A stretch of DNA of 64,000 nucleotides from an uncultured Acidobacteriota bacterium (GTDB lineage: Bacteria > Acidobacteriota > Terriglobia > Terriglobales > Acidobacteriaceae): assembly GCA_963758565.1 (NCBI GenBank), contig CAVWVX010000002.1, positions 202,186-266,185 of the forward strand. Reading direction: 5' to 3'. The notes under the pieces were generated by a model. That model saw only the letters and a program-made list of their open reading frames with translations. It ran no database searches and was not told where the DNA came from. The position numbers and the translations under genes were made by a program. Shown here one piece after another: positions 6,640 through 39,155 of this stretch (position 1 is the first letter of the stretch; each line of letters begins with the position of its first letter).

Positions 6640-7429
6640 GACTCGTTCCTTTTCTTGGTAGCTTTCGGCACGACTGAAGTCGTGCCCTTCCCGGTCGTGG
6701 CGGGGGCGAATTTCAAGAGGGATGGCGGCGGGGTGGCGCAGGCGAACAGCAGGTTCCTCGACTTCGCAAGATCATCCGCTTCGCGGATAATCCTGCTTCG
6801 CTCGGAATGACAAAATTGTTTGGGGGCTTGCGACGGGACTGAGGGCGTGCCCTTCCTGATCGTAGCGCTGCCAAAGTTCAAAACGTCCACGGGGGCTGAA
6901 GCCCGGCTAGCTTTTGGGGGGCTGGACGCGGCGCTGAAGCGCCGCTCTTCCACGGCGGTGCACGGGTTTGGGCGCGGATTGCGGCGGGACTGAGGGCGTG
7001 GCCTTCCTGGGCGTGGCGGTGGCGAATTCCTGGGGATGCGGCCGTGGAATCCCATGTTTCGCAAAGGACGCGAAACATGGGGCACCCGCGGTTCGTGGTG
7101 GCGTGGGAATTTTTCTTTCGCCCCTGCGGGGCTGGGTTATCGTCTCCTGCTTTTACCCACGGCGCGCGCCGTGGGCTGCATTCTTTCGCCGCTTCGCGGC
7201 TTGGTTCCATCTTAGGCGGCGTGCGGCCGATTTCGGCGCGCTTCGCTTGCTGAGGGCAGGCTCAAGAACTGAAGTTGTGCCCTTCGCGGTCGTGGCACTG
7301 CCGAATTCCTAGAAGGATGGGGCCGTGGAATCCCACGTTTCGCAAAGGACGCGAAACATATGGCACCCGCCGTTCGTGGTGGTTCCGGCGGACAGCAGAT
7401 TCCTCGCCGGGCTTTCAACTCCGTTCGGA
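6640..7429. repeat. Array of modular palindromic intergenic repeats (REP/MITE-like family)
   Basis: Hairpin ggcacgacTGAAgtcgtgcc at 6667-6686. Module 'cagcagRttcctc-[hairpin]-tcggaatgaYRa' at 6745-6814 and 7391-7436. A roughly 115-nt unit (..cgaattcct..ggccgtggaatcccaYgtttcgcaaaggacgcgaaacat..ggcacccgc.gttcgtggtgg) occurs at about 6985-7100 and about 7270-7385. Also gcggcgcTGAAgcgccgc and ggggcTGAAgccc hairpins. Confidence 0.85.
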
Positions 7430-9239: not shown

Positions 9240-9870
9240 TGGCGCTCTGCACGGTCCGCATTTCCTTGGGTTCGCGCCGCGCTTCGCTTGGTCAGGGCAG
9301 GCTCAAGAGCTGAAGTCGTGGTCTTTCCGGTCGCGGCGTTGGCGAATTCCTGGAGGGATGGAGGCATGGAATTCCCGGTCGTGGAGGCGTCGGCGAAAAG
9401 CAGATTCCTCACCGGCAAAGGACGCCGGTTCGGAATGACAAGGATTTTGGCTGGTTTGAGCTCTCTGTGGCGTCCCTACGGGCCTCGGTTCTATTTCGTG
9501 CGAGCTTACCCAGGATTTACGTCCCTTCGGCAAGCTCAGGGCAGGCTCTGGGCTATCATCTGGCGCCCCTCCGGGGCTTGGGTGTGGTGACGTCGGCTTA
9601 TTCTTCTTCTTCTTCTTCTTCTAACCGCCTTGTGGCTCCTCATTGAGGCTTACGGCAAGCTCGAAATCGTGCTCTTCGGGCGCGTCCGCTGACGAATTCC
9701 TGGAGGCCTGCGGTCATGGTTAGCGTCGGCGAAAAGCAGATTCCTCACCGGCAAGGACGCCGGTTCGGAATGACAAAGAATTTTGGAGGGTTTGAGCGGT
9801 TCGCTGATCGCAGTGCTGAAGCGCTGCGCCACCCAAAATCTCATTCTCTGTAATTCCGAGTTTTCCACAG
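9240..9870. repeat. Second array of modular palindromic repeats
   Basis: Module 'aaaagcagattcctcaccggcaaRggacgccggttcggaatgacaaRg' at 9395-9443 and 9727-9777. '..gaattcctggagg..' units at about 9340-9360 and about 9695-9712. gctcagggcaggctc units. gtgcTGAAgcgctgcgccacccaaaatc at about 9812-9842. Confidence 0.8.
9601..9622. repeat. (TTC)7 microsatellite
   Basis: ttcttcttcttcttcttcttct read directly from the sequence. Confidence 0.95.
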
Positions 9871-27373: not shown

Positions 27374-27919
27374 TTACTTGGTCACATCCGGTTCGTAGAC
27401 CGAGTTGCCAAAACCCTGTCTGCGGGCTGACTCCTGCGCTTGCTCGAGAGCCTTCTTCTTTGTATCGAGTTCCGCTTGCATGCGTTCGACCTGCTGCTGC
27501 TTTTGCCGCTGCCGCTCATTCCACTCGACGCAACGAGGTCCGTTACACGGGTGCGAAGCAAAGCGAATCGACTGGTTGAGCTGGTCAATTTGTTTTTGCA
27601 GATTTGCGATCTGGCTCTTTTGCGTCTGAATCTGAGACCTCCAACGTTCGCCGGATTGCTTCATTGCATTTGAACGCGCGGACACATTGCCATGTTTGGT
27701 CGATGGATTTGCCGGCGGTTGCGGAGGGGAGTTCTCCGGGATTTCCTCGTTGGTCACAACGTTGGGAGCGTCGGGATCTTTCGTCCCGGCAGCGGCTCTC
27801 TGCAATCGTTGCTGGCGCGCAACGTCGCCAAGAGAGGGAGAATCCTGACCGGCGGCGAGGGATGAGAATACCGAAATCGCGGCGACGGCAATCAAGATGA
27901 GCTTGCACTTTCTGGGCAT
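27374..27919 (-). CDS. Secreted coiled-coil hypothetical protein
   Basis: Start set to the ATG at 27919 (MPRKCKLILIAVAAISVFSSLAAGQ signal). The C-terminal half is Q/R/K-rich heptad-like (QIANLQKQIDQLNQSIRF..QQQVERMQAELDTKKKALEQAQ). Confidence 0.6.
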   Translation of the reverse strand: MPRKCKLILIAVAAISVFSSLAAGQDSPSLGDVARQQRLQRAAAGTKDPDAPNVVTNEEIPENSPPQPPANPSTKHGNVSARSNAMKQSGERWRSQIQTQKSQIANLQKQIDQLNQSIRFASHPCNGPRCVEWNERQRQKQQQVERMQAELDTKKKALEQAQESARRQGFGNSVYEPDVTK

Positions 27920-28016
27920 GGAAAAGCCCTCCGCCATCAATGCTAGTGGCAAAGAGCGCCGCAGCTCGCATTACCAACGGACCGTCGAAGGTCGGGCGCT
28001 AGGCCAATGCCCAGGG

Positions 28017-29054
28017 TCACGACAGATGTTCTGCGATCAAGGCGTCAAGCTTGGCCAGCAGGGCGTTGTTGCCCTGCCGGGGATAATTGGCCAGCTTTTC
28101 CTGATAGTGCGGCAAATTGTAGAGGAAGGAATCGACGCGCTCTTTTTCCAGCTCTTCCCAGTAAGCGCCGTAACCAGTTTTCTGCAACCAGTAGGCGTTA
28201 AAGATTTGTTCAAACTGGTGCTCGACCGGCACAGCGAGATATGGCTTGGCCAGATGCAAGGCTTCGGTGACCAGTGAAAATCCGGAGTTGGCTACGATAG
28301 CCTTCGCGTTTGTGAGGTCGTGCAAGAATCCGTCAACGGAGGGCTTCTTGTAAACGATCTTTCCCTCTTTGCCGTCCTTACCGAATCCGTAGGCGACGAA
28401 ATCGGCGCGCACCGAGCTCAGTATTTTCGCCAGAGCGGGAGCAGGAGATGTGACGTAAACCAGAATGCTTTCTCCCTGCGCCGGCCGCGCCTCAAGAATT
28501 TCCTGGCGCAGCAATGGCGGGAAGAGGAATGTGTTGCGCTTCTTCACTGGCGCGGTAAAAAAAGAAATGACCAGATAGACGTCGGCGTGTGGGGTCATGA
28601 GCCGGGTGACGAGCTTGGCGGCCGCTGCGTCGTTGCGATACTGCCGCGGATAAGACACCGTCGTGTTGGTCAGGCAATGCTGATTGTCGATGGAGATGAC
28701 CGGCAGCCCCAGGCTGCGCCCTACGTGGCAGGTTAACGGCTCGAAGTCCGTGATTACCAGATCGATCTTCCAATCGGTGGCCAGCCGCTTGAGTTGGTGG
28801 GCGCTCTTTGCCGCCTTGCCCGCGGTCAGCACGTTTTTTGCCAGCGTGCGTTCGTAGCGCACACGATTATTCACGTAGGTCAGGCGGAAGCCGAAAATTT
28901 CGGTGACCTCGAAGTCGCTGAGGTTACGCAATCCGCGGTCGAAGGAGGCGACGTGCAGCGTATGGCTTTGCTGGCGGAGGTGAGTGAGAACTTCCCGGGC
29001 GCGGGTTGAGTGCCCAGCGCCTTCGCCGTTCACACCGTAGAGAATATTTGCCAT
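28017..29054 (-). CDS. Glycosyltransferase (GT-B, MJ1255/TIGR00661-like family)
   Basis: The N-terminus MANILYGVNGEGAGHSTRAREV is characteristic of this GT family. 345 aa. It starts 33 nt downstream of the radical SAM gene on the same strand. Confidence 0.7.
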   Translation of the reverse strand: MANILYGVNGEGAGHSTRAREVLTHLRQQSHTLHVASFDRGLRNLSDFEVTEIFGFRLTYVNNRVRYERTLAKNVLTAGKAAKSAHQLKRLATDWKIDLVITDFEPLTCHVGRSLGLPVISIDNQHCLTNTTVSYPRQYRNDAAAAKLVTRLMTPHADVYLVISFFTAPVKKRNTFLFPPLLRQEILEARPAQGESILVYVTSPAPALAKILSSVRADFVAYGFGKDGKEGKIVYKKPSVDGFLHDLTNAKAIVANSGFSLVTEALHLAKPYLAVPVEHQFEQIFNAYWLQKTGYGAYWEELEKERVDSFLYNLPHYQEKLANYPRQGNNALLAKLDALIAEHLS

Positions 29055-29087: not shown

Positions 29088-30239
29088 CTAAGCTGAAAGC
29101 GCAGTGGCGGCGTGGTCCAGGGCTGAGAGTCTGCGGCCTGTAATCGCGGGCACAAGTTGAATCTGTACCAGGCGCGGCGCGGGAGCATTATCTTTTTTCG
29201 CCAGCAGGTTTTTTGAGGGGATGCCGGTCCGGGCGAAGGATTTTTCGCAGTCGGATGTAGATGGTCCTCGCATATTGCCTTCCAGAAAAGCTACGCCCGG
29301 GCAGCGGGTGCAGGTGGCGCCATGGGCGCATTGCGAGCAGCCGGAAAGATCGCGCAGGCGGATGGAGCGCACATCTTTCAATTGCTCGGAATTGCGCCAG
29401 ATGTCGATGAAACTTTGCTGCCTCACATTGCCGCACGATAAAGGGAAAGCCACGCAGGGATAAAACTCTCCGTAGGGGGAGACGTAACATCCGGTGTGGC
29501 CGGCACTGCAGGGCAACGAATCCATGATCTCTTCGGTGGGTGCGGGCGGAGGCGCGCAAAATTCTTCGGCGTTACCCACATAACTCTCGTCGCGAAATAG
29601 AGTCTGGAGTTCGGAGACGCCGGTTTTCAAGTCGAGGATGGAGCGGTCGCCGTCCATCATCGGAGTGATGGTCGGATCCAGCGTGTATCTGACGCCGAGT
29701 TCTTCGGCCAGCGCGCCAACGCCGCGATGGTCGTGCAAGTTCGCGGTCATGAGCACATTGGCGATCACCACTTTTAAGCCTTGCGCTTTCAGAAACCGAA
29801 TGGCGTCGACGGAGCGCTGCAGGGAGCCAGCAATTTTCGTGATGGCATCGTGCACTTCCGGGCGGTGAGAATAGATGCTGATCTGAATGGATTCCACGCC
29901 GAGATCGCGGAGGCGCGCGGCCTGCGGTTCGCGAATCAGCACGGCGTTCGTTTTCAACTTGATGCAGAAGGTGAGAGCGCGCGCGTGCTCCAGTATTTCA
30001 AAAAAATCCTTGCGCATGAAGATCTCACCGCCACTCAGGGTGAGAATGAAAACGCCGGCCTCGGCCATTTCCGACAGCAGGTTCTTGATTTCAAGCGTGC
30101 TCATTTCGCCATGATCGTCGTGATCGAGATAACAGTGAACGCACTGCTCATTGCAGCGGTAGGTGAGATCGAGTTGCGCGCTCAAAGGCACGCCCAGCTT
30201 CAGGGCCCGGTTGCTCATCTCCTGCAGCAGGGCGCTCAT
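29088..30239 (-). CDS. Radical SAM / SPASM-domain peptide-modifying enzyme
   Basis: CNEQCVHCY (CxxxCxxC) near the N-terminus. C-terminal SPASM-type Cys pattern CSAGHTGCYVSPYGEFYPCV..SGCSQCAHGATCTRCPG. ATGA overlap with the upstream PqqD gene. Confidence 0.88.
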   Translation of the reverse strand: MSALLQEMSNRALKLGVPLSAQLDLTYRCNEQCVHCYLDHDDHGEMSTLEIKNLLSEMAEAGVFILTLSGGEIFMRKDFFEILEHARALTFCIKLKTNAVLIREPQAARLRDLGVESIQISIYSHRPEVHDAITKIAGSLQRSVDAIRFLKAQGLKVVIANVLMTANLHDHRGVGALAEELGVRYTLDPTITPMMDGDRSILDLKTGVSELQTLFRDESYVGNAEEFCAPPPAPTEEIMDSLPCSAGHTGCYVSPYGEFYPCVAFPLSCGNVRQQSFIDIWRNSEQLKDVRSIRLRDLSGCSQCAHGATCTRCPGVAFLEGNMRGPSTSDCEKSFARTGIPSKNLLAKKDNAPAPRLVQIQLVPAITGRRLSALDHAATALSA

Positions 30240-30556
30240 CGAGACTCCTGTCGAGGTGCGGTGGATTGCCCAATGGGTTGCTCGGAGAGCAACAGAATCC
30301 CGTGCTCAGCGAGGTCCTTGGCCAGGGCGGAAGCGTCCTGTAAAGCTTCTTGCGGCTGAACGTCGAACGCGGAACAAATCTTATGCTCAACGATTTCATC
30401 GAGCGGGGTGGAGCCATCGGCAGCCTGCCACAGAATGGTTGCCGTAGGATTCAGCGTGAACAGCGTAGAACCCTGTGCCGACATGACCAGCATTTCTTCG
30501 CCCAGCTTTCGTGCGGCAATGCGCGGACTGCGAGCGATATAAAGTTTCTTGGTCAT
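30236..30556 (-). CDS. PqqD-family RiPP recognition element / peptide chaperone
   Basis: ARKLGEEMLVMSAQGSTLFTLNPTATILWQAADGSTPLDEIVEHK.. matches the PqqD pattern. I prefer the ATG at 30556, which forms ATGA with the kinase stop; an alternative GTG lies at 30571. Confidence 0.8.
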   Translation of the reverse strand: MTKKLYIARSPRIAARKLGEEMLVMSAQGSTLFTLNPTATILWQAADGSTPLDEIVEHKICSAFDVQPQEALQDASALAKDLAEHGILLLSEQPIGQSTAPRQESR

Positions 30557-31368
30557 CGAATCATCTCCCACACCCGCGCGTCAGGAACAAACGTGAGCCG
30601 GTAGGTTGGAACACGCTGCACGAAATCGCAGGCAGTTTGAAATACATGCTGAACCAACTCGGGGTCGCTGGCAAAAAATAAAACGTTCGTTAATAGTTCG
30701 CGGCCAGCCTCCGTAACAGGAATTGGATCGATCCGATTCTCATTCCCTTTTGCCAGCAGGTACAGCGCCGCAATGGGTGCTGAAGTGTTCTCTCCCAGCT
30801 TTGTGAGCTCTCCAACGAAGGGCGTGCCGAAGGCGATGTAACCCTCGCCCCGCTCGCGCACGTAGGACATCTCATCGGTTAAAAGGGTGGCGTCAGGGGG
30901 AGCGAAGCGGGAAATGGTCGTCTTCCCGGCCCCAGAAACACCGGCAAATAAAAATGCCCTTCCGTTCCGGATCGCGCTGGCGGCGTGAAGCAAAAATCCC
31001 CCCTGCTGTGCCAGTGCCAGGGTATGGACGATGCGCAATACGCAGTCCATGGAGTAGGGATTCGCAAGCTGCTCAATTGTCGCGATGCGCGAAGCTGGAT
31101 CCCATTCGGCGCGAAAATCAGCGCGCTGCATCAGCCAGCGCCCGGCTTCGCGACGGACGGTGACCTCGGTATGCCGCTCGGCGAAGGTGGATTGCACGAG
31201 TTCAATGTTGAATTCAAATTCAGCCGTGGTTTCCGCCGTCACGAACCCGGCGTATCGTTCTTGCAGCAGTGCAAGAAAGTCCGAGGAGGCCGTGTTCACC
31301 TTAACGGCAACGCCACCCACGGCGACCACGACGCTGTAGCGTTCGACCTGGAGTTCTACTGCGGGCAC
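30553..31368 (-). CDS. HPr kinase-related (HprK-like) P-loop kinase
   Basis: LLHAASAIRNGRAFLFAGVSGAGKTTISRF P-loop region, typical of the HprK-related kinases found next to PqqD/radical SAM genes. GTG start overlapping the upstream gene by 13 nt. Confidence 0.7.
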   Translation of the reverse strand: MPAVELQVERYSVVVAVGGVAVKVNTASSDFLALLQERYAGFVTAETTAEFEFNIELVQSTFAERHTEVTVRREAGRWLMQRADFRAEWDPASRIATIEQLANPYSMDCVLRIVHTLALAQQGGFLLHAASAIRNGRAFLFAGVSGAGKTTISRFAPPDATLLTDEMSYVRERGEGYIAFGTPFVGELTKLGENTSAPIAALYLLAKGNENRIDPIPVTEAGRELLTNVLFFASDPELVQHVFQTACDFVQRVPTYRLTFVPDARVWEMIR

Positions 31369-31874
31369 GAAATTTCCTTGGAGTTCAATTTTCGGCTGAA
31401 TCGTAGTATGCGATGGGCAAACACCATGGCCCGCGCAGCCGGAACCGCATGCCGGATAATTGTCGCCGTCATTCCTTGAAAAAAGGTCAACGCGGCCGGG
31501 ATTGGAATCAGTCTTCCCGCCCGCACCACATAGGCGACGCGTCCCATCAATTCACTGGCAAACACCGGAGGATCTGGATCTGGCAGGGCATCCCCTTGCG
31601 TGATCCAGTGCCGATTGTTCTCCTTGCCCTTCACTGCCACAACCCGGTGGGCACACAGTGTGCCATGCCGCCCGACAACTACCACTTGGCCGGGAAGAAT
31701 GTCGTCCGGCAAGACTCTCTCGACGATCAGAGTGTCTTCCGGCCAAATGGCCGGCAACATGCTGCGTCCTGTCGCGCTAAGGCGCAACGAACCGGCCGAG
31801 CGCAAAACCTCGCCGGCAAGATCGCATTTCACGACGGAGGCAGGTTCAACCGTCGAGTAAATAGTTTGCCTCAT
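31356..31874 (-). CDS. S24/S26-family (LexA / signal-peptidase-like) serine peptidase, candidate leader peptidase
   Basis: ATGRSMLPAIWPEDTLIVERV (Ser nucleophile context G-x-S-M-x-P..GD) and WITQGDALPDPD. Hydrophobic C-terminal segment. Its ATG overlaps the stop of the precursor ORF (ATGA). Confidence 0.65.
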   Translation of the reverse strand: MRQTIYSTVEPASVVKCDLAGEVLRSAGSLRLSATGRSMLPAIWPEDTLIVERVLPDDILPGQVVVVGRHGTLCAHRVVAVKGKENNRHWITQGDALPDPDPPVFASELMGRVAYVVRAGRLIPIPAALTFFQGMTATIIRHAVPAARAMVFAHRILRFSRKLNSKEISCPQ

Positions 31875-32038
31875 GACCTCGAAACGATGTTGCAGCCGCT
31901 GGAGGTAGGATCGGTTTTCCCGCAGTTCAGCGCAGAAGTAACAAAGACTTGTTCGTAGCGAAAGCTGGGCTTGTCGTAGGGCTTCTTCTCGCTTGCCGCG
32001 GTGCGCGGGTTTTCGTCGAATGATTGATTTGCAGCCAT
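31871..32038 (-). CDS. Candidate RiPP precursor peptide (55 aa), not in the supplied ORF track
   Basis: Manual reverse-complement translation gives MAANQSFDENPRTAASEKKPYDKPSFRYEQVFVTSALNCGKTDPTSSGCNIVSRS*. GAGGAA lies 8-9 nt upstream of the ATG at 32038. The TGA overlaps the ATG of the peptidase gene. It lies 16 nt downstream of the 712-aa gene. Confidence 0.6.
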   Translation of the reverse strand: MAANQSFDENPRTAASEKKPYDKPSFRYEQVFVTSALNCGKTDPTSSGCNIVSRS

Positions 32039-32054
32039 GGTTATTATTCCTCGC

Positions 32055-34193
32055 TTACTTTAAACCAGCTTGTGACGCTTGAATCGCACATCCCCCGGCA
32101 CCCGACGTCCCACAAGGCTGGTTGCCCAAGGTAGAGAAGTAGACTTGGGAACCGCCCGCCGAAGTCACGGTATTATCGATGATCACGGCACTGGCGCCGC
32201 CGCTCACGGGCAGAGCCGCAGTGCTCAGCAATCCCACGTTCGTCCACTGCAGACCCGAGGAACCATCGTTGGTCACCACGCCAGCCGTCGTACTAAAAGT
32301 GGGAATGGACCCGCCGGAGGTTCCGTGTGCTGTTACCAACTGAACGTAATTATTGGCATCAAGAATCTTGGTGTTAAGCGCGTAGGCATGATTGGCCTGC
32401 CAGGCGGCGGGCGTGAAAGCCGATTGCGGTCCCTGATTCAGCCACTGTACCGAGCCATCGCTAGTGGTGCCGCCAAGGCTCGCGGTCCAGGTGGGAACGG
32501 ACGATCCAGAGGTTCCTGCAACGCTTACTACCTCAATCTGGAAGTGGCTATCGAGAACTTCCTGGCCTACTGTATATGCATTGGAGGGTTGCCAGGGCGT
32601 GTTCTTAAAATTGAAGATGCATCCGCCTGATGCGCACGACGAGGCAGCTCCAAGGTTCTGCACGCTCATGAAAATCCATTCCGTCGGTCCGCCAGAGACA
32701 TTCGGATTCAGAAAATCAGTGACTGGAGAGCATGCCGGGCTTCCACTGCTCGCAAGCACTGGTCCAGCTGTGCCGAAACCGCTTAAAGAACTGGCAGCAA
32801 TGGGCACGCGATAAAGAATTGGGGGGCCGCCCGTGTTTCCGCAAACGTAAATATCTCCCGTCGCATTTAAAGAAGTTCGATAGGCGCTGTCAAAGCCCGC
32901 TAAATAGAGTGGATTCGGCTTTGTAGGAGAAATCGAACTGGCACCCACAATGGCTTTCTGTCCGGTATTGCCGGCTGGAAAATCCGCAACCAGCGCATAC
33001 ACGGCCGAGCAGTCAGATCCGCCCGTGCAACCGGCGCTGCCGTCGCTCGTGGCAAAGGCATAAACCAGTTCAGCCGCCGGATCAACCGCCGGGCCATCGA
33101 TCATTCCGGGCCCGCCATCCAGTGACTTGGAGAAATCCAGTTGGCCGGAAGCGGCCACAAAGGCAGTGTCAGGTCCGACCCGGTACAACAAGCCCCCGCG
33201 GTCCGAGACAAAGGCGAGTCCTGAAGTTGGGTCATACGCCGGACTGGAAAGCGGCGTGGGCAGCAACGCGTTCACCTGGACCGGCCAACCGGCGCTGCCT
33301 ACTTCAGCGGGCACGCCATCGAAAACCGGCGTAATTTTGTGCAGCCACCCGGCATCATCCCCCACAAAAGCAATATCGAGACCGTAAACATAGAAGACGG
33401 AGGATCCCGTATCGGCGTTCGGATTTCCGCTCGAGTCTTTCAGCGGCTCGGTGGTCATGCAAGGGGCGCTGCACGTGGGGTACTGCGCGTTGGTGACTCG
33501 CGCTAGAGTCATGGGATTGCTGACGGTCTCCGAGGTGGAAGCGGCCCATTTCAGCAAAACCAAGGTGGCATTGCCGGAGGGATCGCTCTGCACAAATGCC
33601 ACTTGGGTTCCGTCCATCGAGAGAACGGGCGAAGTGGTGACGGTTCCGCCAGCGGTGTTGTAGGCCCAATAAACTGAAGGCACCGTGCCGCTGCAGCTGG
33701 AGTACAGATTGTCGTACGCGACTATATTAGCCTGGGTTGACGATCCCGCCAGTCCAGTTCCGTAAACCACGAAATCCGGTTGCGCCGCGCTGGCGCAATT
33801 GGCGCTGGTAATGGTGAACGCGAACTTTGCTGGATAATTTCCCGCGCCCACACTTGCGCCGGAGTTCATGTTCTCGGCCCAGTCGCGCTTAAGTTTCTTT
33901 TTGCCAGATAAGCTCGCCCGCTGCAGCTCTTCAGTTACTGCTCGGTCTACCGCTTGCGGCGACTTGGCTGACATGCGCAACTGTTGCTGCCGGTAGCGGA
34001 AATCCCGCTCCAGCAACTTTGCCCGCTCCGCATTGGCTGGCTTGGAGAAGATCACGCGGTTCTGGCTCCAATCGCTGATCACCGGGGTGGTATTTTTCAA
34101 ATCAGGCGAAGTTTGCGCAAAAACTGCCCCACTAAAAACGAACGTTGCAAGCAGCCAGACTCCCAGCCGGAGCTGGCGTTGCTGGTTTCTCAT
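32055..34193 (-). CDS. Large secreted hypothetical protein (beta-rich, Ser/Gly/Thr/Ala-rich) with two C-terminal ~40-aa repeats
   Basis: Signal peptide MRNQQRQLRLGVWLLATFVFSGAVFAQ. Repeats GTSGSSVPTWTASLGGTTSDGSVQW and GTSGGSIPTFSTTAGVVTNDGSSGLQW. No enzymatic motif recognised. Confidence 0.7.
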   Translation of the reverse strand: MRNQQRQLRLGVWLLATFVFSGAVFAQTSPDLKNTTPVISDWSQNRVIFSKPANAERAKLLERDFRYRQQQLRMSAKSPQAVDRAVTEELQRASLSGKKKLKRDWAENMNSGASVGAGNYPAKFAFTITSANCASAAQPDFVVYGTGLAGSSTQANIVAYDNLYSSCSGTVPSVYWAYNTAGGTVTTSPVLSMDGTQVAFVQSDPSGNATLVLLKWAASTSETVSNPMTLARVTNAQYPTCSAPCMTTEPLKDSSGNPNADTGSSVFYVYGLDIAFVGDDAGWLHKITPVFDGVPAEVGSAGWPVQVNALLPTPLSSPAYDPTSGLAFVSDRGGLLYRVGPDTAFVAASGQLDFSKSLDGGPGMIDGPAVDPAAELVYAFATSDGSAGCTGGSDCSAVYALVADFPAGNTGQKAIVGASSISPTKPNPLYLAGFDSAYRTSLNATGDIYVCGNTGGPPILYRVPIAASSLSGFGTAGPVLASSGSPACSPVTDFLNPNVSGGPTEWIFMSVQNLGAASSCASGGCIFNFKNTPWQPSNAYTVGQEVLDSHFQIEVVSVAGTSGSSVPTWTASLGGTTSDGSVQWLNQGPQSAFTPAAWQANHAYALNTKILDANNYVQLVTAHGTSGGSIPTFSTTAGVVTNDGSSGLQWTNVGLLSTAALPVSGGASAVIIDNTVTSAGGSQVYFSTLGNQPCGTSGAGGCAIQASQAGLK

Positions 34194-34466: not shown

Positions 34467-35438
34467 TCACGCCGGGATCGCCGAGGTTGGAATCTGCTGC
34501 GCTTTATTCCTAAGTTCTTCAAAGAGGATCGTGCTCAGGTAGCGTTCTCCGAACGAGGGCAATACCACCACAATCAGCTTCCCGGCATTCTCCGCCCGGC
34601 GCGCCACTTGCAATGCCGCCGTCACCGCAGCGCCTGAAGATATTCCGACAAACAATCCTTCTTCCAGTGGAAGACGTCGCGCCATGCGAATGGCTTCATC
34701 GTTCGTGACCGTGATGACTTCATCAATGTAGTCGCGCCGCAAGATGCTGGGAACAAAGCCCGCGCCAATTCCCTGGATTTTATGCGGCGATGGTTTTCCT
34801 CCCGAAAGCACGGCGCTGTCAGCGGGCTCTACCGCAATCGCCTTGAACGACGGTTTCTTCGGCTTGATGTATTCGCAAACCCCGGTGATGGTTCCCCCGG
34901 TGCCGACGCCGGAAATCAGAATATCGACACGCCCGTCAGTGTCGTTCCAGATTTCAGGACCGGTGGTTTCGAAGTGTATCTTGGGATTGGCGGCGTTATC
35001 GAACTGTTGCAGCATGTAGCTATTGGGAGTGTTTCCTAACAACTCCTGCGCTTTGGCTATGGCACCCTTCATTCCGTTGGGACCAGGTGTAAGAACGATC
35101 TCTGCACCGAAAGCCAGCAGCAGCACGCGCCGCTCCATGCTCATGGTTTCCGGCATCACCAGGATGAGCCGGTAACCTTTCACCGCTGCTACAAAGGCCA
35201 GGCCGATTCCGGTATTGCCGCTGGTAGGCTCAATCAGCACGGTTTTTCCCGGGGCAATTTTCCCCGCCCGCTCCGCCTCGGTAACCATGCTTACGCCGAT
35301 GCGGTCTTTCACGCTGCCCACTGGATTCTGACTTTCCAGCTTGGCCACCACTTCCGCCACGCAGCCGCCGGTCACTTTGTTCAGCCGTACCAGCGGAGTG
35401 TGCCCGATCAGTTCGGTAACGTCTTTGGCAATCTTCAT
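34467..35438 (-). CDS. cysK: Cysteine synthase A (O-acetylserine sulfhydrylase)
   Basis: Start trimmed to the ATG at 35438 ([22 protein letters not shown]). PLP-lysine context [11 protein letters not shown]. Also [18 protein letters not shown] and GTGGTITG. Confidence 0.92.
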
Positions 35439-35473
35439 GGCGAGTGCTCTCCCTTCATCGCTTCGATCCCGGC

Positions 35474-36028
35474 TTACTTTGTCATGACGGTCTTCGCTGC
35501 CTCGTCGGTGCGAAGCGGCAATGCCAGAGCATCCTGCACAGACTTCGGCAGCTTGTCGGCCTGCGCCACCAACAAACTTACCTGCCACATCTGAGTATCG
35601 GATAGCACGGGCTTGAAGCCGGGCATCCCCGTGAGGCGAATACCATTCGCCACTTTCCAGTAGCTTTCACCCGGCTCGTCGTCGGTGACGCCCCGGCCTT
35701 CCATCAATTTTGGCGGCCGCGGAAACATTCCGGTCGCAATCAGCGTCTCTTTTTGCGCCGGAAGTCCGTGGCATACGGCACAATGCTCGCGGTAGATTTG
35801 CGCTCCCGCGGCCAGATTGGATTCATCTCCTTGAATGGGAACTGTCTTCGGCATCTCGCGCTGCACTCGCGCGTTCAGTGCTTGATGCGCCAGCTTCTTT
35901 TCAAATGGCATGGCCTGGGCAGAAGTCGCCACTGGAGCCTGCCCCGTCGCAAAGTAAAAATAAACGCCGGCCAGAACCCCAACCACCCCCAAAATGATTC
36001 CGAAAACCAGCGTGCCGAACATGCGCAT
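35474..36028 (-). CDS. Membrane-anchored monohaem c-type cytochrome
   Basis: N-terminal [25 protein letters not shown]. Single CAVCHG haem-binding motif. Distal Met candidates are present downstream. Confidence 0.8.
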
Positions 36029-36299: not shown

Positions 36300-39155
36300 C
36301 TACACCCCGACCGTCTCTTCCCGCGGTTTCCCCGCCAGCAACTGCCTCAACACGTACTGCAGAATCCCGCCGTTAGCGTAGTACAGCGCCTCCTGCGGAG
36401 TATCGATGCGCACCAGCGCTTCAAACTCTTTGGGCTGGTCTTTGCCGCCTCCGCCGCTGTTGGCTGCTGACGATGCGCGAACTTTCACTTTCTGTCCCGC
36501 CGCGTAACGGTCGATCAGCCCGCGGATGCCGGTGATCTCAAACACTTCTTCGCCGGTCAGGCCATGGGTTTCGGCATTCTCTCCCGCAAGAAATTGCAAC
36601 GGCAGCACTCCCATTCCCACCAGGTTCGAGCGGTGAATGCGTTCGTAGCTTTCGGCGATCACGGCGGAGACGCCCAGCAGGCGCGGCCCCTTCGCTGCCC
36701 AGTCACGAGATGAGCCCGAGCCGTATTCTTTGCCCGCCAGAATGATCAGCGGCGTGCCCTCCGCAATATATTTCTCCGACGCGTCGAAGATCGACATCTC
36801 CTGATTGGTCGGCAGATGGCGGGTGTAGCCGCCTTCCACACTCACTAGCTTATTTCGTAAGCGGACGTTGGCGAACGTTCCCCGCACCATCACTTCGTGA
36901 TTGCCGCGCCGCGAGCCGTACGAGTTAAAGTCTGCCGGCTTTACGCCATGCTCCTGCAAGTATTTTCCTGCCGGTCCATCCTTCTTGATCGAGCCTGCGG
37001 GAGAAATGTGGTCGGTGGTCACGCTGTCGCCCAGTACCGCCAGCACCCGCGCGCCTTTAATCTCGTTTACAGCCGAAGGCTGGATCTTCATGTCATCGAA
37101 ATAAGGCGCGCGCCGAATGTAGGTGGAATCTTCTTCCCACTCGTAAGTTTCGCCCTTGGGCACCGAGAGTCCGCGCCAGCGCTCGTCGCCGTCGAAGACT
37201 CCGGCGTAACTCTTGGTAAACATTTCGGCGGTCACTGATTTCTCCACCGCTTGTTCCACTTCACTTTGCGTTGGCCAGATGTCCTTGAGATAAACCGGCT
37301 TGCCATCCTTACCTTTGCCGATCGCGTCTTTGCGCAGGTCAATATCGATACGCCCCGCCAGCGCGAAGGCCACCACCAGCGGCGGCGACATCAAATAATT
37401 TGCCCGCACCTCGGAGTTGATGCGTCCTTCAAAGTTGCGATTGCCCGAAAGCACCGAAGCCACCACCAGCTCTTTTTCTTCAATCGCCTCCGAAACTTCT
37501 GTGGGCAGCGGCCCCGAGTTGCCGATGCACGTGGTGCATCCGTAGCCGACGATATTGAACTTGAGTTCGTCCAGATAAGGACGCAGTCCGGCATTCTCCA
37601 GATAATCGCGAACCACTTTTGACCCCGGCGCCAGCGATGCCTTCACCCAGGCCGGCAGCGATAGTCCTTTCTCGACAGCTTTTTTGGCCAGAAGTCCCGC
37701 GGCCATCATGACCGAAGGATTCGAAGTGTTCGTGCACGATGTGATCGCCGCGATCACCACGCTGCCATGCTTCAACGACTTCTTCACGCTGACCGGGACG
37801 TGTTCCGCCACACTGTCATCCTGTACCCCAACCGCCGTGGGGCTACCGCCTTCCTGCTCCCAGCGATCCATCTGCCGCGGCGCGCTGCCTGGAGACGCAT
37901 TTCCTGAAGCAGCTGGAATCGCCACATTCGCCGCCGCTGCCGTCTTCGGCTTGATCAACGAGGGCAACGCTTTGTTGAACGATTCTCCCGCCTGCGACAG
38001 AAGGACGCGATCCTGCGGACGCTTCGGCCCCGCCAGGCTCGGTTCAACTGTGCCGAGATCAAGCGACAGCAGCTCGGAGTACTCCGCCTCCGGCGTGTGC
38101 TCGTCATGGAACAATCCCTGCTCGCGGCAGTAAGCCTCCACCAACGCAACTTGCTCCGCGCTCCGCCCGCTGAGTTTCAAATACTTCAACGTCTCTTTAT
38201 CTACCGGAAAGATTCCACATGTCGCCCCGTACTCCGGAGACATATTTGCAATCGTCGCCCGATCCGCCAGCGGCAAATCGCGCAGTCCGGGTCCAAAGTA
38301 TTCAACAAACTTGCCGACCACGCCATGCTTCCGCAACATCTCCGTAATAGTCAGGACCAAATCCGTAGCAGTCGCGCCTTCGGGCAGTTTCCCCGTCAAC
38401 TTCACCCCCACCACCAGCGGAATCAACATGGAAACCGGCTGCCCCAACATCGCCGCCTCCGCCTCAATCCCCCCCACTCCCCACCCCAAAACCCCCACCC
38501 CATTTATCATTGTCGAATGTGAGTCGGTGCCGACTAACGTGTCGGGGCTGGCGACGGGTTTGCCGTTTTCATCTTTTACGAAGACGACGCGGGCGAGGTA
38601 TTCGAGGTTCACCTGGTGGACGATGCCGGTGTCGGGGGGGACGATGGCGAGGTTGCGGAATCCGGTTTGGCCCCAGCGGAGGAAGGAGTAACGCTCTTTA
38701 TTGCGCTGGAATTCGAGCAGGGCGTTCATGTCGAAAGCTGAAGAGGTGCCGAACTCATCCACTTGCACGGAGTGGTCGATGACTAACTCGACCGGCTGCA
38801 GAGGATTGATGAGGGTGGGGTCGCCGCCGAGTTGCTGCATGGCATCGCGCATGGCGGCCAAGTCGACCACGCACGGAACGCCGGTGAAATCCTGCAGGAG
38901 GACGCGGCTGGGAGTGAAGGCGATTTCTTTATCCGGCTTGGAATTTTTGTTCCACGCGGCCATGGAGCGCACGTCTTCTTTCTTGACGTTGCGGCCATCT
39001 TCGGTGCGCAGAAGGTTCTCCAGCAGTATGCGCAGGGAGTAGGGAAGATGTTTGGTGGAGATGCCTTGCTTATCGAGGGCGTCGAGGCGATAAATTTCGT
39101 ATTCTTTGTTGCCGACTTTGAGGGTGGCGCGGGAGTTAAAACTATTCAGCGACAT
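36300..39155 (-). CDS. acnA: Aconitate hydratase A
   Basis: 951 aa. MSLNSFNSRATLKVGNKEYEIYRL.. N-terminus, Fe-S ligand contexts ITSCTNTSNP and GCTTCIGNSG, and the C-terminal swivel domain. Confidence 0.95.
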   Translation of the reverse strand: MSLNSFNSRATLKVGNKEYEIYRLDALDKQGISTKHLPYSLRILLENLLRTEDGRNVKKEDVRSMAAWNKNSKPDKEIAFTPSRVLLQDFTGVPCVVDLAAMRDAMQQLGGDPTLINPLQPVELVIDHSVQVDEFGTSSAFDMNALLEFQRNKERYSFLRWGQTGFRNLAIVPPDTGIVHQVNLEYLARVVFVKDENGKPVASPDTLVGTDSHSTMINGVGVLGWGVGGIEAEAAMLGQPVSMLIPLVVGVKLTGKLPEGATATDLVLTITEMLRKHGVVGKFVEYFGPGLRDLPLADRATIANMSPEYGATCGIFPVDKETLKYLKLSGRSAEQVALVEAYCREQGLFHDEHTPEAEYSELLSLDLGTVEPSLAGPKRPQDRVLLSQAGESFNKALPSLIKPKTAAAANVAIPAASGNASPGSAPRQMDRWEQEGGSPTAVGVQDDSVAEHVPVSVKKSLKHGSVVIAAITSCTNTSNPSVMMAAGLLAKKAVEKGLSLPAWVKASLAPGSKVVRDYLENAGLRPYLDELKFNIVGYGCTTCIGNSGPLPTEVSEAIEEKELVVASVLSGNRNFEGRINSEVRANYLMSPPLVVAFALAGRIDIDLRKDAIGKGKDGKPVYLKDIWPTQSEVEQAVEKSVTAEMFTKSYAGVFDGDERWRGLSVPKGETYEWEEDSTYIRRAPYFDDMKIQPSAVNEIKGARVLAVLGDSVTTDHISPAGSIKKDGPAGKYLQEHGVKPADFNSYGSRRGNHEVMVRGTFANVRLRNKLVSVEGGYTRHLPTNQEMSIFDASEKYIAEGTPLIILAGKEYGSGSSRDWAAKGPRLLGVSAVIAESYERIHRSNLVGMGVLPLQFLAGENAETHGLTGEEVFEITGIRGLIDRYAAGQKVKVRASSAANSGGGGKDQPKEFEALVRIDTPQEALYYANGGILQYVLRQLLAGKPREETVGV

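What the first reader, a model, noticed from the sequence alone, without database searches (positions are those of the whole stretch)
31871..32038. Unannotated 55-aa ORF as candidate precursor peptide (two-Cys core)
Reverse-complement translation gives MAANQSFDENPRTAASEKKPYDKPSFRYEQVFVTSALNCGKTDPTSSGCNIVSRS. The ORF has a GAGGAA Shine-Dalgarno 8-9 nt upstream. It begins 16 nt after the stop of the 712-aa gene, and its TGA overlaps the ATG of the peptidase gene. That placement is exactly where a precursor is expected. The N-terminal ~35 residues are charged and leader-like (KPSFRYEQVF could be the PqqD-binding segment). The C-terminal ~20 residues are rich in Ser/Thr/Cys/Asp/Asn (CGKTDPTSSGC). 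These residues would suit thioether (sacti/ranthipeptide-type) cross-links, phosphorylation or glycosylation.
Basis: seen in the sequence. Interest (0 to 1): 0.75.

Follow-up and report, generated by a model that had tools for sequence, protein, structure and literature searches.

The report
Conserved acidobacterial radical-SAM peptide precursor gene
The 55-codon ORF is a real, protein-coding gene that always travels with a peptide-modifying enzyme set (peptidase, kinase-like protein, PqqD chaperone, radical SAM enzyme) in soil Acidobacteria. It is almost certainly the precursor of an uncharacterised modified peptide whose family is in no curated library.

Summary
ORF 31871..32038 (-) encodes the stated 55 aa, with GAGGAA 8 nt upstream, 16 nt after the 712-aa gene's stop and an ATGA overlap with the next gene.

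An ORF this short is common by chance; comparison with relatives makes it real. Relatives lie in 119 species-level genomes, nearly all Acidobacteriaceae or Ca. Sulfotelmatobacter MAGs, and in 426 clusters at 50% identity. Across 74 distinct coding sequences variation is mostly third-position. In residues 18-41 pS is 0.64 and pN 0.07.

- Of 80 peptide-anchored loci, 72 carry S26-type peptidase, ScmC/PEPCK-like P-loop protein, PqqD and rSAM/SPASM directly downstream.
- All 60 enzyme-anchored metagenome loci with enough upstream sequence carry the peptide.
- One relative fuses a full PqqD domain to the peptide.

Family signature: variable N-terminus, block KKPYxKPxFRxExVF(V/E)TxALxCGK, variable 7-10-residue loop, second Cys, 6-9-residue tail, invariant C-terminal Ser (119/119).

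Most likely it is a RiPP precursor: PqqD binds the conserved block, the rSAM acts on the two-Cys core, the peptidase removes the leader, and the kinase-like protein may phosphorylate the terminal Ser. The chemistry is inferred. No Pfam, NCBIfam or paper match was found.

The parts
31871..32038 (-). Precursor peptide gene (55 aa plus TGA).
   Evidence: ORF and translation. There are 17 close homologues, 119 genome loci and 426 clusters at 50% identity. Purifying selection: codon-position entropy 0.74/0.62/1.24, pooled pS 0.61 and pN 0.26.
32047..32052 (-). Shine-Dalgarno-like GAGGAA, 8 nt before the ATG.
   Evidence: GAGG/GGGA-type purine runs are seen at the same place upstream of most of the 74 homologous CDS. 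Function is inferred.
31916..31987 (-). Conserved recognition block, residues 18-41 (KKPYDKPSFRYEQVFVTSALNCGK). It is the putative RRE/enzyme-binding part of the leader and runs to the CGK that opens the core.
   Evidence: pS 0.64 against pN 0.068 over 74 CDS. The motif is kept in the 50%-identity representatives. Y21-x-x-P24-x-F26 resembles the YxxPxL leader motif of lasso precursors (PMC10368454). The binding role is inferred.
31874..31924 (-). Putative core, residues 39-55 (CGKTDPTSSGCNIVSRS): Cys39, a variable loop, Cys49, a variable tail and the invariant C-terminal Ser55.
   Evidence: Over 119 unique sequences there are exactly two Cys in 118, a Cys-Cys spacing of 7-10 (mode 9), a tail of 6-9 residues and a last residue of Ser in 119/119. 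After K41 pN is 0.46 against pS 0.62. The exact leader/core boundary is not determined.
31356..31874 (-). S26-family peptidase (172 aa), cytoplasmic ER/archaeal type. Candidate leader peptidase.
   Evidence: TIGR02228 sigpep_I_arch scores 36.7 bits, below the cut-off of 51.85; Peptidase_S24 and the SodX protease are weak hits. It aligns to human SEC11A/C with Ser38, His76 and Asp94 at the catalytic positions. These motifs are conserved in 76 homologues. ATGA overlap with the peptide stop.
30553..31368 (-). ScmC-like / PEPCK-HprK-like P-loop protein (271 aa, GTG start). Candidate ATP-dependent kinase acting on the peptide.
   Evidence: TIGR04249 ScmC 53 bits and TIGR04352 HprK_rel_A 29 bits, both below cut-off. 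Precomputed PF27840 ScmC hit. The P-loop GVSGAGKTT and LLTDE are conserved. Foldseek on a low-confidence model returns only ATP-PEPCK, then HprK/P.
30236..30571 (-). PqqD-family RRE protein (111 aa from the first ATG). The likely true start is Met6 at 30556, whose ATG overlaps the ScmC-like stop.
   Evidence: PF05402 scores 49.3 bits, above the cut-off of 23.4. Junction sequence. Another pipeline called a 106-aa product.
29088..30239 (-). Radical SAM/SPASM maturase (383 aa). Its ATG overlaps the PqqD stop.
   Evidence: PF04055 and PF13186 hit. The best NCBIfam hits (AhbD, NirJ2, MftC, WgkB, GeoRSP, StsB) are all below cut-off. PDB: SkfB, then PqqE. It is 66-85% identical across loci. CNEQCVHC and the SPASM cysteines are visible in the translation.
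32055..34193 (-). 712-aa secreted beta-propeller protein of unknown function. A frequent but not obligatory upstream neighbour.
   Evidence: No Pfam or NCBIfam hit. Signal-peptide-like N-terminus. The AF2 model has pLDDT 73.9 and is all-beta. Foldseek gives only generic propellers. It is upstream in 47 of 80 genome loci. A 27%-identical relative lies convergent to three orphan peptide copies.
28017..29054 (-). MJ1255/VC2487-family glycosyltransferase. It follows the rSAM gene here; its link to the system is doubtful.
   Evidence: PF13528 scores 429 bits. It is present downstream in only 9 of 80 genome loci. Other loci have an M48 peptidase there.

Best explanation
The ORF is the precursor gene of a ribosomally made, post-translationally modified peptide. 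It is the first gene of a translationally coupled five-gene operon: peptide, S26-type peptidase, ScmC/PEPCK-like P-loop protein, PqqD, rSAM/SPASM.

Proposed mechanism:
1. The nearly invariant block KKPYxKPxFRxExVF(V/E)TxAL serves as the recognition sequence bound by the PqqD-type RRE. This presents the peptide to the rSAM/SPASM enzyme.
2. The rSAM enzyme modifies the short core, CGK - variable loop - C - variable tail - S. The most plausible reaction makes one or two cross-links that involve the invariant cysteines (thioether type).
3. The P-loop protein uses ATP to modify a hydroxyl. The invariant C-terminal Ser is the obvious candidate, by analogy with the HprK-family kinases of phosphorylated lasso peptides.
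4. The cytoplasmic Ser-His-Asp S26 peptidase removes the leader near the small-residue stretch T-S-A-L-S.

Shown: the gene is real and under purifying selection, the family signature, strict co-occurrence and coupling with the enzymes, and intact catalytic motifs in the enzymes.

Inferred: every chemical step, the leader/core boundary and the biological role.
For: Coding and conserved:
- 17 close homologues with 20 invariant columns.
- 74 distinct CDS with third-position-biased variation; residues 18-41 have pS 0.64 and pN 0.068.
- 426 clusters at 50% identity keep the motif, the two Cys and the terminal Ser.

Linkage to the enzymes:
- 72 of 80 peptide-anchored genome loci have all four enzyme genes directly downstream, and 3 more are cut by a contig end.
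- 60 of 60 ScmC-anchored metagenome loci with at least 760 nt of upstream sequence have the peptide.
- Start and stop codons overlap at all four junctions in the window.
- One representative (P0401) carries a full PqqD domain, 46% identical to the window's and scoring 47.6 bits on PF05402, in one ORF with the peptide.

Enzymes look active:
- rSAM plus SPASM domains.
- PqqD above the Pfam cut-off.
- S26 Ser/His/Asp aligned to SEC11 and conserved.
- P-loop and acidic motif conserved.

Precedents:
- HprK-family kinases phosphorylate the C-terminal Ser of lasso precursors (PMC6993621).
- The YxxPxL leader motif of lasso precursors (PMC10368454).
- An S26 protease (SodX) trims an N-terminal propeptide; this is an NCBIfam family description, with a weak hit.
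Against: - No modification, binding or cleavage has been observed; all chemistry is by analogy.
- No exporter, immunity gene or regulator is conserved in the operon. That is unusual for a secreted bioactive RiPP.
- The locus looks vertically inherited, next to housekeeping genes (cysK, aconitase). This fits a cellular role as well as a natural product.
- All family-specific NCBIfam models for the enzymes score below their cut-offs, so nothing can be transferred from a characterised orthologue.
- The ScmC-like model is of low confidence (pLDDT 57). It resembles PEPCK more than HprK, so a protein or peptide kinase role is not established.
- Five peptide copies have no enzymes within 10 kb.
Confidence: 0.85

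Rival explanations
1. The peptide is matured by the same enzymes, but its end use is as a cross-linked small partner or subunit of the secreted 712-aa beta-propeller protein, possibly with the nearby cytochrome c. The analogy is the gamma subunit QhpC of quinohemoprotein amine dehydrogenase, or the light chain of methylamine dehydrogenase. It would not be a free natural product.
For: - The 712-aa family sits directly upstream of the peptide in 47 of 80 genome loci and in 27 of 36 enzyme-anchored metagenome loci with enough room.
- A 27%-identical relative is the only shared neighbour of three orphan peptide copies.
- The protein has a signal-peptide-like N-terminus and a beta-propeller model. 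Methylamine dehydrogenase heavy chain is among the generic propeller hits (rank 5).
- A c-type cytochrome gene lies upstream here and in about 15 loci.
- QHNDH precedent: QhpD is an rSAM enzyme that makes Cys-Asp/Glu thioethers in the small subunit QhpC, whose 28-residue leader is then cut by a dedicated serine protease (PMC7876137).
- No exporter or immunity gene is present.
Against: - About 40% of loci lack the propeller gene next to the peptide.
- The Foldseek hits are generic propellers with TM 0.2-0.5 and no specific dehydrogenase signal. There are no PQQ or other cofactor domains.
- The peptide has no Trp (none in the core), so a CTQ/TTQ-type cofactor is impossible.
- Asp or Glu is absent from many loops.
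- The mature core would be only about 17-19 residues and hypervariable, which is odd for a structural subunit.
- No ABC exporter like QhpF is in the operon.
- The three orphan loci are closely related, so they count as roughly one evolutionary event.
Confidence: 0.08
2. The peptide is the sacrificial precursor of a small peptide-derived cofactor or metabolite, like PqqA to PQQ or MftA to mycofactocin. Only a few conserved residues (for example the CGK, or the C-terminal Ser) would end up in the product.
For: - The gene content parallels PQQ and mycofactocin systems: a small peptide, a PqqD chaperone, an rSAM/SPASM enzyme and a peptidase.
- The rSAM enzyme's best full-length NCBIfam alignment is to the mycofactocin maturase MftC (129 bits, residues 15-331).
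- The locus is single-copy, looks vertically inherited, has no exporter and sits among housekeeping genes.
- An invariant C-terminal residue recalls MftA, whose C-terminal residues are the ones modified (established knowledge).
Against: - MftC and PqqE models score far below their cut-offs: 129 against 265 and 96 against 381.
- No homologues of the downstream cofactor-tailoring enzymes (MftD, PqqB/C) are in the conserved set.
- The second Cys and the loop and tail lengths are conserved although the loop sequence is free. That suggests a macrocyclic peptide whose whole core matters, rather than a two-residue fragment.
Confidence: 0.05
3. The ORF encodes an unmodified small protein, such as a regulator, an assembly factor or an inhibitor of the neighbouring enzymes. 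Alternatively it is a chance ORF over a conserved non-coding element.
For: - ORFs of this size are frequent by chance.
- No experimental evidence of modification exists.
Against: - The chance-ORF or non-coding reading is excluded by frame-specific, synonymous-biased conservation over 74 sequences and by conserved start, stop and length.
- An unmodified-protein role does not explain the strict coupling to a PqqD RRE and an rSAM/SPASM enzyme, the PqqD-peptide fusion, or the leader-like plus hypervariable-core architecture with invariant Cys and a terminal Ser.
Confidence: 0.02

Closest known systems
rSAM/SPASM plus PqqD-RRE dependent RiPPs (sactipeptides and ranthipeptides such as subtilosin/AlbA, SkfA/SkfB, SCIFF)
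   Same: A small precursor next to a PqqD-type recognition element and an rSAM enzyme with a SPASM domain. The leader block is conserved and the core is variable with invariant Cys. SkfB is the best PDB sequence match. AlbA, StsB and SkfB models are among the NCBIfam hits.
   Different: - All those models are far below their cut-offs.
- The RRE is a separate protein here, not fused to the rSAM enzyme.
- There are only two Cys, and no conserved acceptor residue can be seen in the loop.
- An S26 peptidase and a P-loop kinase-like protein are obligatory partners.
- There is no exporter.
SynChlorMet (SCM) cassette of NCBIfam/TIGRFAMs (ScmC, ScmD, ScmE, ScmF). It was defined bioinformatically and has no characterised product, to my knowledge.
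   Same: The same pairing of an ScmC-type P-loop protein, a PqqD homologue and rSAM/SPASM enzyme(s). ScmC and ScmD are the top NCBIfam hits for the two proteins. The PF27840 ScmC hit is precomputed.
   Different: - Scores are 53 against 125 for ScmC, 24 against 100 for ScmD, and 98 and 59 against 400 for ScmE and ScmF. This is a sister system, not a member.
- There is one rSAM gene rather than two.
- An S26 peptidase is added.
- I found no paper on the cassette in the searchable library.
Phosphorylated lasso peptides (paeninodin/PadeK, pseudomycoidin/PsmK)
   Same: A PqqD-type RRE, a YxxPxL-like leader motif, an HprK/PEPCK-fold P-loop protein in the cluster, and a precursor that ends in Ser, the residue those kinases phosphorylate (PMC6993621; PMC10368454).
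   Different: - No lasso cyclase (Asn-synthetase-like C) and no B2 transglutaminase-type protease are in the operon.
- An rSAM enzyme and an S26 peptidase take their place.
- HprK_rel_A scores 29 against 200.
Mycofactocin (MftA/B/C/E) and PQQ (PqqA/D/E) systems
   Same: The same peptide, PqqD chaperone and rSAM/SPASM logic, with a peptidase. The genes are chromosomal, without an exporter, and look vertically inherited. MftC is the best full-length rSAM alignment.
   Different: - Scores are below cut-off.
- There is no C-terminal Gly-Val-Tyr and no Glu/Tyr pair.
- There are no downstream tailoring enzymes.
- The two-Cys loop architecture is conserved.
Quinohemoprotein amine dehydrogenase biogenesis (QhpC/QhpD/QhpE)
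   Same: An rSAM enzyme that cross-links Cys in a small leader-bearing polypeptide, a dedicated serine protease that removes the leader, and propeller and cytochrome c genes nearby (PMC7876137).
   Different: - There is no Trp, so no CTQ.
- The core is much shorter.
- There is no ABC exporter.
- The propeller gene is absent from about 40% of loci.
- The peptidase is S26, not subtilisin-like.

Membership tests
RiPP precursor served by a PqqD-type RRE and an rSAM/SPASM maturase (generic class) | A small ORF genetically linked to the RRE and maturase genes across many genomes. | tested here: met
   72 of 80 peptide-anchored loci and 60 of 60 enzyme-anchored loci. Overlapping start and stop codons. 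PqqD-peptide fusion P0401.
RiPP precursor served by a PqqD-type RRE and an rSAM/SPASM maturase (generic class) | The ORF is translated, shown by amino-acid-level purifying selection. | tested here: met
   Third-position-biased variation. Overall pS is 0.61 and pN 0.26; in residues 18-41 pS is 0.64 and pN 0.068.
RiPP precursor served by a PqqD-type RRE and an rSAM/SPASM maturase (generic class) | A bipartite precursor: a conserved recognition (leader) segment and a core with a few fixed, modifiable residues. | tested here: met
   Conserved block at residues 18-41, followed by a variable loop and tail with invariant C39, C49 and a terminal Ser.
RiPP precursor served by a PqqD-type RRE and an rSAM/SPASM maturase (generic class) | The leader physically binds the RRE, and enzymes modify the core and remove the leader. 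| not testable with these tools
   This needs binding assays, in vitro reconstitution or MS of the product.
SynChlorMet cassette (NCBIfam TIGR04248-04251) | Each protein scores above the curated equivalog cut-off. | tested here: not met
   ScmC 53.2 against 125, ScmD 24.4 against 100, ScmE 98.2 against 400, ScmF 59.1 against 400. The broader Pfam PF27840 ScmC hit is on record.
HprK-family precursor kinases of lasso clusters (HprK_rel_A, PadeK/PsmK) | Membership score in TIGR04352. | tested here: not met
   28.8 bits against a cut-off of 200.
HprK-family precursor kinases of lasso clusters (HprK_rel_A, PadeK/PsmK) | A Walker-A P-loop, a following acidic metal-binding pair and the PEPCK/HprK fold. 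| tested here: inconclusive
   GVSGAGKTT and LLTDE are conserved in 76 homologues. Foldseek hits are ATP-PEPCK (E 1e-5) then HprK/P (E 0.08), but the model has pLDDT of only 57.
HprK-family precursor kinases of lasso clusters (HprK_rel_A, PadeK/PsmK) | The substrate precursor ends in Ser, and lasso cyclase and B-protease genes are in the cluster. | tested here: not met
   The terminal Ser is invariant (119/119). No cyclase or B-type protease is among the operon genes.
Sactipeptide / ranthipeptide | An rSAM maturase with a SPASM domain, and Cys donors in the core. | tested here: met
   PF04055 and PF13186 hit. There are two invariant Cys.
Sactipeptide / ranthipeptide | Cys-S to C-alpha, C-beta or C-gamma thioether bonds in the product. 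| not testable with these tools
   This requires MS/NMR of the product. The maturase models (AlbA 82 against 850, StsB 100 against 625, SkfB 69 against 300) are all below cut-off.
Mycofactocin | An MftC-equivalog rSAM enzyme and a precursor ending in Gly-Val-Tyr. | tested here: not met
   TIGR03962 scores 129 against 265. The precursor ends in Ser and has no terminal Tyr.
QHNDH gamma subunit (QhpC) | A Trp that becomes CTQ, and Cys-Asp/Glu thioether partners. | tested here: not met
   No Trp is in the core of any of 119 sequences, and Asp or Glu is absent from many loops.
Signal peptidase I, ER/archaeal type (S26B) | A Ser-His(-Asp) catalytic set in the GxSMxP, HR and GD motifs. | tested here: met
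   Alignment to SEC11A/C places S38, H76 and D94 at those motifs. They are conserved in 76 homologues.
Signal peptidase I, ER/archaeal type (S26B) | A score above the TIGR02228 cut-off and an N-terminal membrane anchor. | tested here: not met
   36.7 bits against 51.85. The N-terminal 30 residues are hydrophilic. It is therefore a divergent, probably cytoplasmic S26 relative.

The most novel reading that the evidence does not exclude
The operon would not make a secreted antibiotic. It would make a short, cysteine-cross-linked, C-terminally phosphorylated peptide with a conserved cellular job in Acidobacteriaceae. That job could be as a covalently constrained partner, ligand or cofactor-bearing piece of the secreted 712-aa beta-propeller protein and its cytochrome c. 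Alternatively it could be a new peptide-derived cofactor or metal-binding peptide. Either way it would be a new QHNDH-, PQQ- or mycofactocin-like class found in one of the most abundant soil lineages.
Probability: 0.13. Interest if true: 0.85.

Novelty: new variant of a known kind. Interest (0 to 1): 0.6.

Why it matters
Acidobacteriaceae and Sulfotelmatobacter-like bacteria dominate many acidic soils and peatlands, yet almost none of their peptide chemistry is known.

This work identifies the substrate gene for a widespread, apparently vertically inherited rSAM/PqqD operon. The peptide family spans 426 clusters at 50% identity, and the kinase-like partner has more than 6,000 clusters at 90% identity. 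The enzymes match no characterised orthologue.

With the precursor defined, the system becomes directly testable by co-expressing five small genes and running MS. The testable features are the recognition block, the two-Cys loop and the invariant terminal Ser.

The enzyme mix is not one of the characterised RiPP classes. It combines an rSAM/SPASM enzyme, a PEPCK/HprK-fold P-loop protein and a soluble Sec11-type serine peptidase used as a leader peptidase. New cross-link or C-terminal chemistry is therefore plausible.

The family also deserves a curated model. At least one public gene call truncates the peptidase and removes its catalytic Ser.

Tried and rejected
- **Curated families for the peptide.** Pfam, NCBIfam and PADLOC returned nothing, even at E<=1 and with distant members.
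- **Literature.** 'SynChlorMet' and the combinations HPr kinase + radical SAM + PqqD + precursor peptide, and Acidobacteria + RiPP + radical SAM + HPr kinase, returned no paper; a first search that also included 'ScmC' and 'HprK-related kinase' returned only unrelated 'SCMC' acronyms. The only paper holding Acidobacteria, radical SAM, precursor peptide, RiPP and SPASM together concerns thioamidated RiPPs. The 2011 Haft and Basu paper is not held.
- **Distant ScmC-like relatives.** The protein search listed only hits of at least 66% identity, so deep relatives of the enzyme set could not be inspected in context.
- **ScmC-like structure.** The model was poor (pLDDT 57). I use its Foldseek result only as weak support.
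- **Shared substrate tail between the 712-aa protein and the peptide.** The C-terminus CGTSGAGGC...AGLK looked similar to the peptide's. Rejected: the big protein's tail is a conserved C-x6-8-C AVQASQSALQ motif unrelated in sequence, and the orphan-locus relatives lack it.
- **Second precursor copy in the window.** None found.
- **Promoter and terminator scan of the operon.** Nothing above the shuffle expectation.
- **Rfam.** No RNA element in the operon.
- **Other maturases near orphan peptide copies.** Only housekeeping genes were found.
Full report
**1. The observation**

- The ORF is 31871..32038 (-), starts with ATG and encodes 55 aa: MAANQSFDENPRTAASEKKPYDKPSFRYEQVFVTSALNCGKTDPTSSGCNIVSRS.
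- GAGGAA lies at 32052..32047, 8 nt before the ATG.
- The TAA of the 712-aa ORF is at 32057..32055, 16 nt upstream.
- The peptide's TGA shares ATGA with the start of the 172-aa ORF (31356..31874).

By itself this means little. One search lists 158 ORFs of at least 40 aa in the surrounding 18 kb, so the question is whether the ORF is conserved as a coding sequence.

**2. The neighbourhood**

Domain searches give the following order on the minus strand:
- aconitase (36300..39155);
- a c-type cytochrome (35474..36028);
- cysteine synthase CysK (34467..35588);
- a 712-aa protein with no family hit (32055..34193);
- the peptide;
- a 172-aa S24/S26-like peptidase;
- a 271-aa protein whose best hits are ScmC of the 'SynChlorMet cassette', HprK-related kinase A/B and the PEPCK P-loop region;
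- a PqqD protein, above the Pfam cut-off;
- an rSAM/SPASM enzyme;
- an MJ1255/VC2487-type glycosyltransferase.

Every family-specific NCBIfam model scores below its curated cut-off.

The five genes from the peptide to the rSAM enzyme are translationally coupled:
- ATGA at peptide/peptidase;
- a 13-nt overlap at peptidase/ScmC-like;
- ATGA at ScmC-like/PqqD, using Met6 of the PqqD ORF;
- ATGA at PqqD/rSAM.

**3. Is the ORF a gene?**

A protein search found 17 small proteins of 55-74 aa at 58-80% identity. They share 20 invariant columns, including both Cys.

A scan of one genome per species found 119 loci that encode a relative. Nearly all are from Acidobacteriaceae, Ca. Sulfotelmatobacter or Ca. 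Acidoferrum MAGs. Two Acido-Lenti-1 RNAs elsewhere in the window agree with that origin.

I extracted 74 homologous coding sequences, all different at the DNA level. Most have a purine-rich SD-like run at the same distance. In the codon alignment:
- mean column entropy is 0.74, 0.62 and 1.24 for codon positions 1, 2 and 3;
- pooled pS is 0.61 and pN 0.26;
- in residues 18-41 pS is 0.64 and pN only 0.068;
- after K41 pN rises to 0.46, except at the invariant second Cys and the last residue.

This is the signature of a translated gene with a strongly constrained N-proximal block and a nearly free C-terminal part. No other conserved small ORF occupies the position. The window holds no second copy.

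**4. Linkage to the enzymes**

In the 80 peptide-anchored genome loci:
- 72 carry peptidase, ScmC-like, PqqD and rSAM genes in that order directly downstream;
- 3 more are cut by a contig end;
- 5 are orphan copies.

For the reverse test I scanned metagenome contigs with the ScmC-like protein. Sixty loci have at least 760 nt upstream of that gene, and all 60 carry the peptide ORF. A strict motif found 47. The other 13 differ only at Q30 and were found by inspection.

A profile of the peptide family searched against 1.84 billion representatives found 426 clusters at 50% identity. Almost all are 48-160 aa with the match at the C-terminus. One of them, P0401, is a single ORF. It has a complete PqqD domain, 46% identical to the window's and scoring 47.6 bits on PF05402. 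About 25 linker residues follow, and then the peptide. A second, truncated protein shows the same arrangement. This fusion is independent evidence that PqqD and the peptide work together.

**5. Family signature**

Over 147 loci (119 unique sequences) and the distant representatives, the pattern is as follows.
- The N-terminus varies in length and sequence.
- A block (K/R)KPYxKPxFRxExVF(V/E)TxALxCGK follows.
- Then comes a loop rich in Thr, Gly, Ser and Gln, without Trp, Tyr, Lys or Arg.
- The Cys-Cys spacing is 7-10 residues (mode 9).
- The tail after the second Cys is 6-9 residues.
- The last residue is Ser in 119 of 119 unique sequences, and in 101 of 105 motif-bearing distant representatives. 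The exceptions look like truncated or frameshifted calls.

Y21-x-x-P24-x-F26 resembles the YxxPxL motif that lies at -17 to -12 of lasso leaders (PMC10368454). By that ruler the core would start near residue 38, where conservation ends. This is an analogy, not a measurement.

**6. The enzymes look functional**

- **Peptidase.** It aligns to the human signal-peptidase catalytic subunits SEC11A/C, with S38 (GRSMLP), H76 (AHRV) and D94 (QGDA) at the catalytic motifs. These are conserved in 76 homologues. It has no hydrophobic N-terminus, so it is probably soluble and cytoplasmic. It resembles the S26 protease that trims NiSOD, which is a weak NCBIfam hit. One public gene call starts at Met39 and so deletes the catalytic Ser.
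- **ScmC-like protein.** It keeps a Walker-A loop (GVSGAGKTT) and the following LLTDE, which aligns to the GDD of PEPCK. Its AF2 model is poor (pLDDT 57). Even so, the only significant structural neighbours are ATP-dependent PEPCKs, followed weakly by HprK/P.
- **rSAM enzyme.** It has CNEQCVHC and a full set of SPASM cysteines. It is the most conserved protein of the set, at 66-85% identity. Its closest solved relatives are SkfB and PqqE.

**7. Mechanism proposed**

The shown and inferred parts are kept apart.

Shown:
- the gene is real and conserved;
- it has a bipartite architecture;
- it is strictly linked to a PqqD RRE, an rSAM/SPASM enzyme, an S26 peptidase and a P-loop protein, and is translationally coupled with them;
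- the enzymes retain their catalytic motifs.

Inferred:
- PqqD binds the conserved block and delivers the peptide to the rSAM enzyme.
- The rSAM enzyme cross-links or otherwise modifies the core through C39 and C49.
- The P-loop protein phosphorylates a hydroxyl. The invariant terminal Ser is the best candidate, because HprK-family kinases of lasso clusters do exactly this (PMC6993621).
- The S26 peptidase removes the leader near the small-residue stretch T-S-A-L-S.

The glycosyltransferase is present in only 9 of 80 loci and is replaced by an M48 peptidase elsewhere. It is at best a lineage-specific accessory.

**8. The 712-aa protein**

- It has a signal-peptide-like N-terminus and no family hit. 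It has 1,669 homologues, all 'hypothetical', and some carry an added ice-binding-like domain.
- With a 48-sequence alignment AF2 gives an all-beta model (pLDDT 73.9, pTM 0.77).
- The structural neighbours are generic beta-propellers: S9 peptidase, WD40 proteins, TolB and methylamine dehydrogenase heavy chain (TM 0.2-0.5).
- It precedes the peptide in 47 of 80 genome loci and in 27 of 36 enzyme-anchored loci with room.
- A 27%-identical relative lies convergent to three orphan peptide copies whose other neighbours are housekeeping genes.

This recurrent pairing, the cytochrome c gene and the lack of any exporter suggest a rival reading. The matured peptide could serve the propeller protein, as QhpC serves QHNDH after cross-linking by the rSAM enzyme QhpD and leader removal by QhpE (PMC7876137).

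Several points argue against this:
- 40% of loci lack the propeller gene;
- the peptide has no Trp;
- many loops have no Asp or Glu;
- the core is hypervariable;
- the structural match is generic.

I keep it as a minority hypothesis, together with a PQQ/mycofactocin-like cofactor role.

**9. Comparison with known systems**

The system works like an RRE-dependent rSAM/SPASM RiPP pathway. Its nearest curated relative is the SynChlorMet cassette, but it is not a member: all four models score below cut-off. It is also not a lasso system (no cyclase or B protease), not mycofactocin or PQQ (scores below cut-off, wrong C-terminus), and not QHNDH (no Trp).

No Pfam, NCBIfam or PADLOC model recognises the peptide. 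I found no paper on this cluster type in the searchable library. That library lacks most subscription journals, so prior description cannot be excluded.

**10. Verdict**

- It is a genuine precursor-peptide gene of a widespread, uncharacterised acidobacterial rSAM operon.
- I rate it a new variant of a known kind, because the enzyme combination and the invariant C-terminal Ser are unusual.
- Interest is moderate to high (0.6). RiPP discovery by genome mining is routine. But this family is abundant in a poorly understood major soil lineage, looks vertically inherited without exporter or immunity genes, and is now directly testable.

Noticed in passing
window 7156-7201 (+) and 9535-9578 (+): Two matches to the Rfam sRNA family Acido-Lenti-1 (47 and 37.2 bits; gathering score 37). 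They are consistent with an acidobacterial origin of the window.
   Followed up: no
window 31356-31874 (-): A public gene call for the peptidase (NCBI/ENA sources) is 134 aa and starts at Met39. This cuts off the catalytic Ser38 of the GRSMLP motif. The 172-aa version, with the ATGA overlap to the peptide stop, is the one supported by homologues.
   Followed up: partly
L060 3167-3355, L071 9944-10120, L079 9944-10120 (peptide copies). p712-like genes on the opposite strand at L060 3419-5590, L071 10184-12298, L079 10156-12228.: These are orphan peptide copies with a distinct, longer N-terminus (MVNGNPKPDDKE...). No maturase genes lie within 10 kb. Each is convergent with a 690-723-aa distant relative (27% identity) of the 712-aa protein. 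Other neighbours are housekeeping genes (PheT, Mfd, GH31).
   Followed up: partly
protein P0401 (154 aa) and P0347 (88 aa), from the representative library: A single ORF joins a complete PqqD domain to a precursor-like peptide (…RRPYEKPSFRYERAFETMALSCGKATAGQGQCQTNRKVS). It may be a natural RRE-precursor fusion or a lost stop codon. Its genomic context could not be fetched.
   Followed up: partly
window 32055-32140 (-), the C-terminus of the 712-aa protein: The family ends in a conserved C-x6-8-C loop followed by AVQASQSALQ/K. This looks superficially like the peptide's C...C tail but is not related in sequence. The orphan-locus relatives lack the Cys pair.
   Followed up: yes
homologues of the 712-aa protein (e.g. 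P0171, P0174, P0250): About 10% of the listed homologues are 906-932 aa and carry an extra PF11999 ice-binding-like domain.
   Followed up: no
L026, L057, L062, L077 (genome loci): These loci have the typical operon and 66-74% peptide identity. They sit in MAGs labelled Dormiibacterota, Verrucomicrobiia, Binatia and Deferrimicrobiaceae. Mis-binned acidobacterial contigs seem more likely than transfer, but this was not tested.
   Followed up: no
L020 and L029 (same MAG); L037 and L040 (same MAG): Two loci of the system from one MAG each: two complete operons in L020/L029; in L037/L040, one locus cut by the contig end and one complete. This may reflect real duplication or strain mixtures in the bins.
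   Followed up: no
L067 10001-11601: About 1 kb separates the peptide gene from the S26 peptidase gene, against 0-60 nt elsewhere. This suggests an insertion in the operon.
   Followed up: no
window 27374-27952 (-): A 192-aa ORF with a hydrophobic N-terminus and a Gln/Lys-rich, coiled-coil-like C-terminal half. It recurs 0.1-3 kb downstream of the rSAM gene in about half of the loci at 42-60% identity. Its relation to the system is unknown.
   Followed up: no
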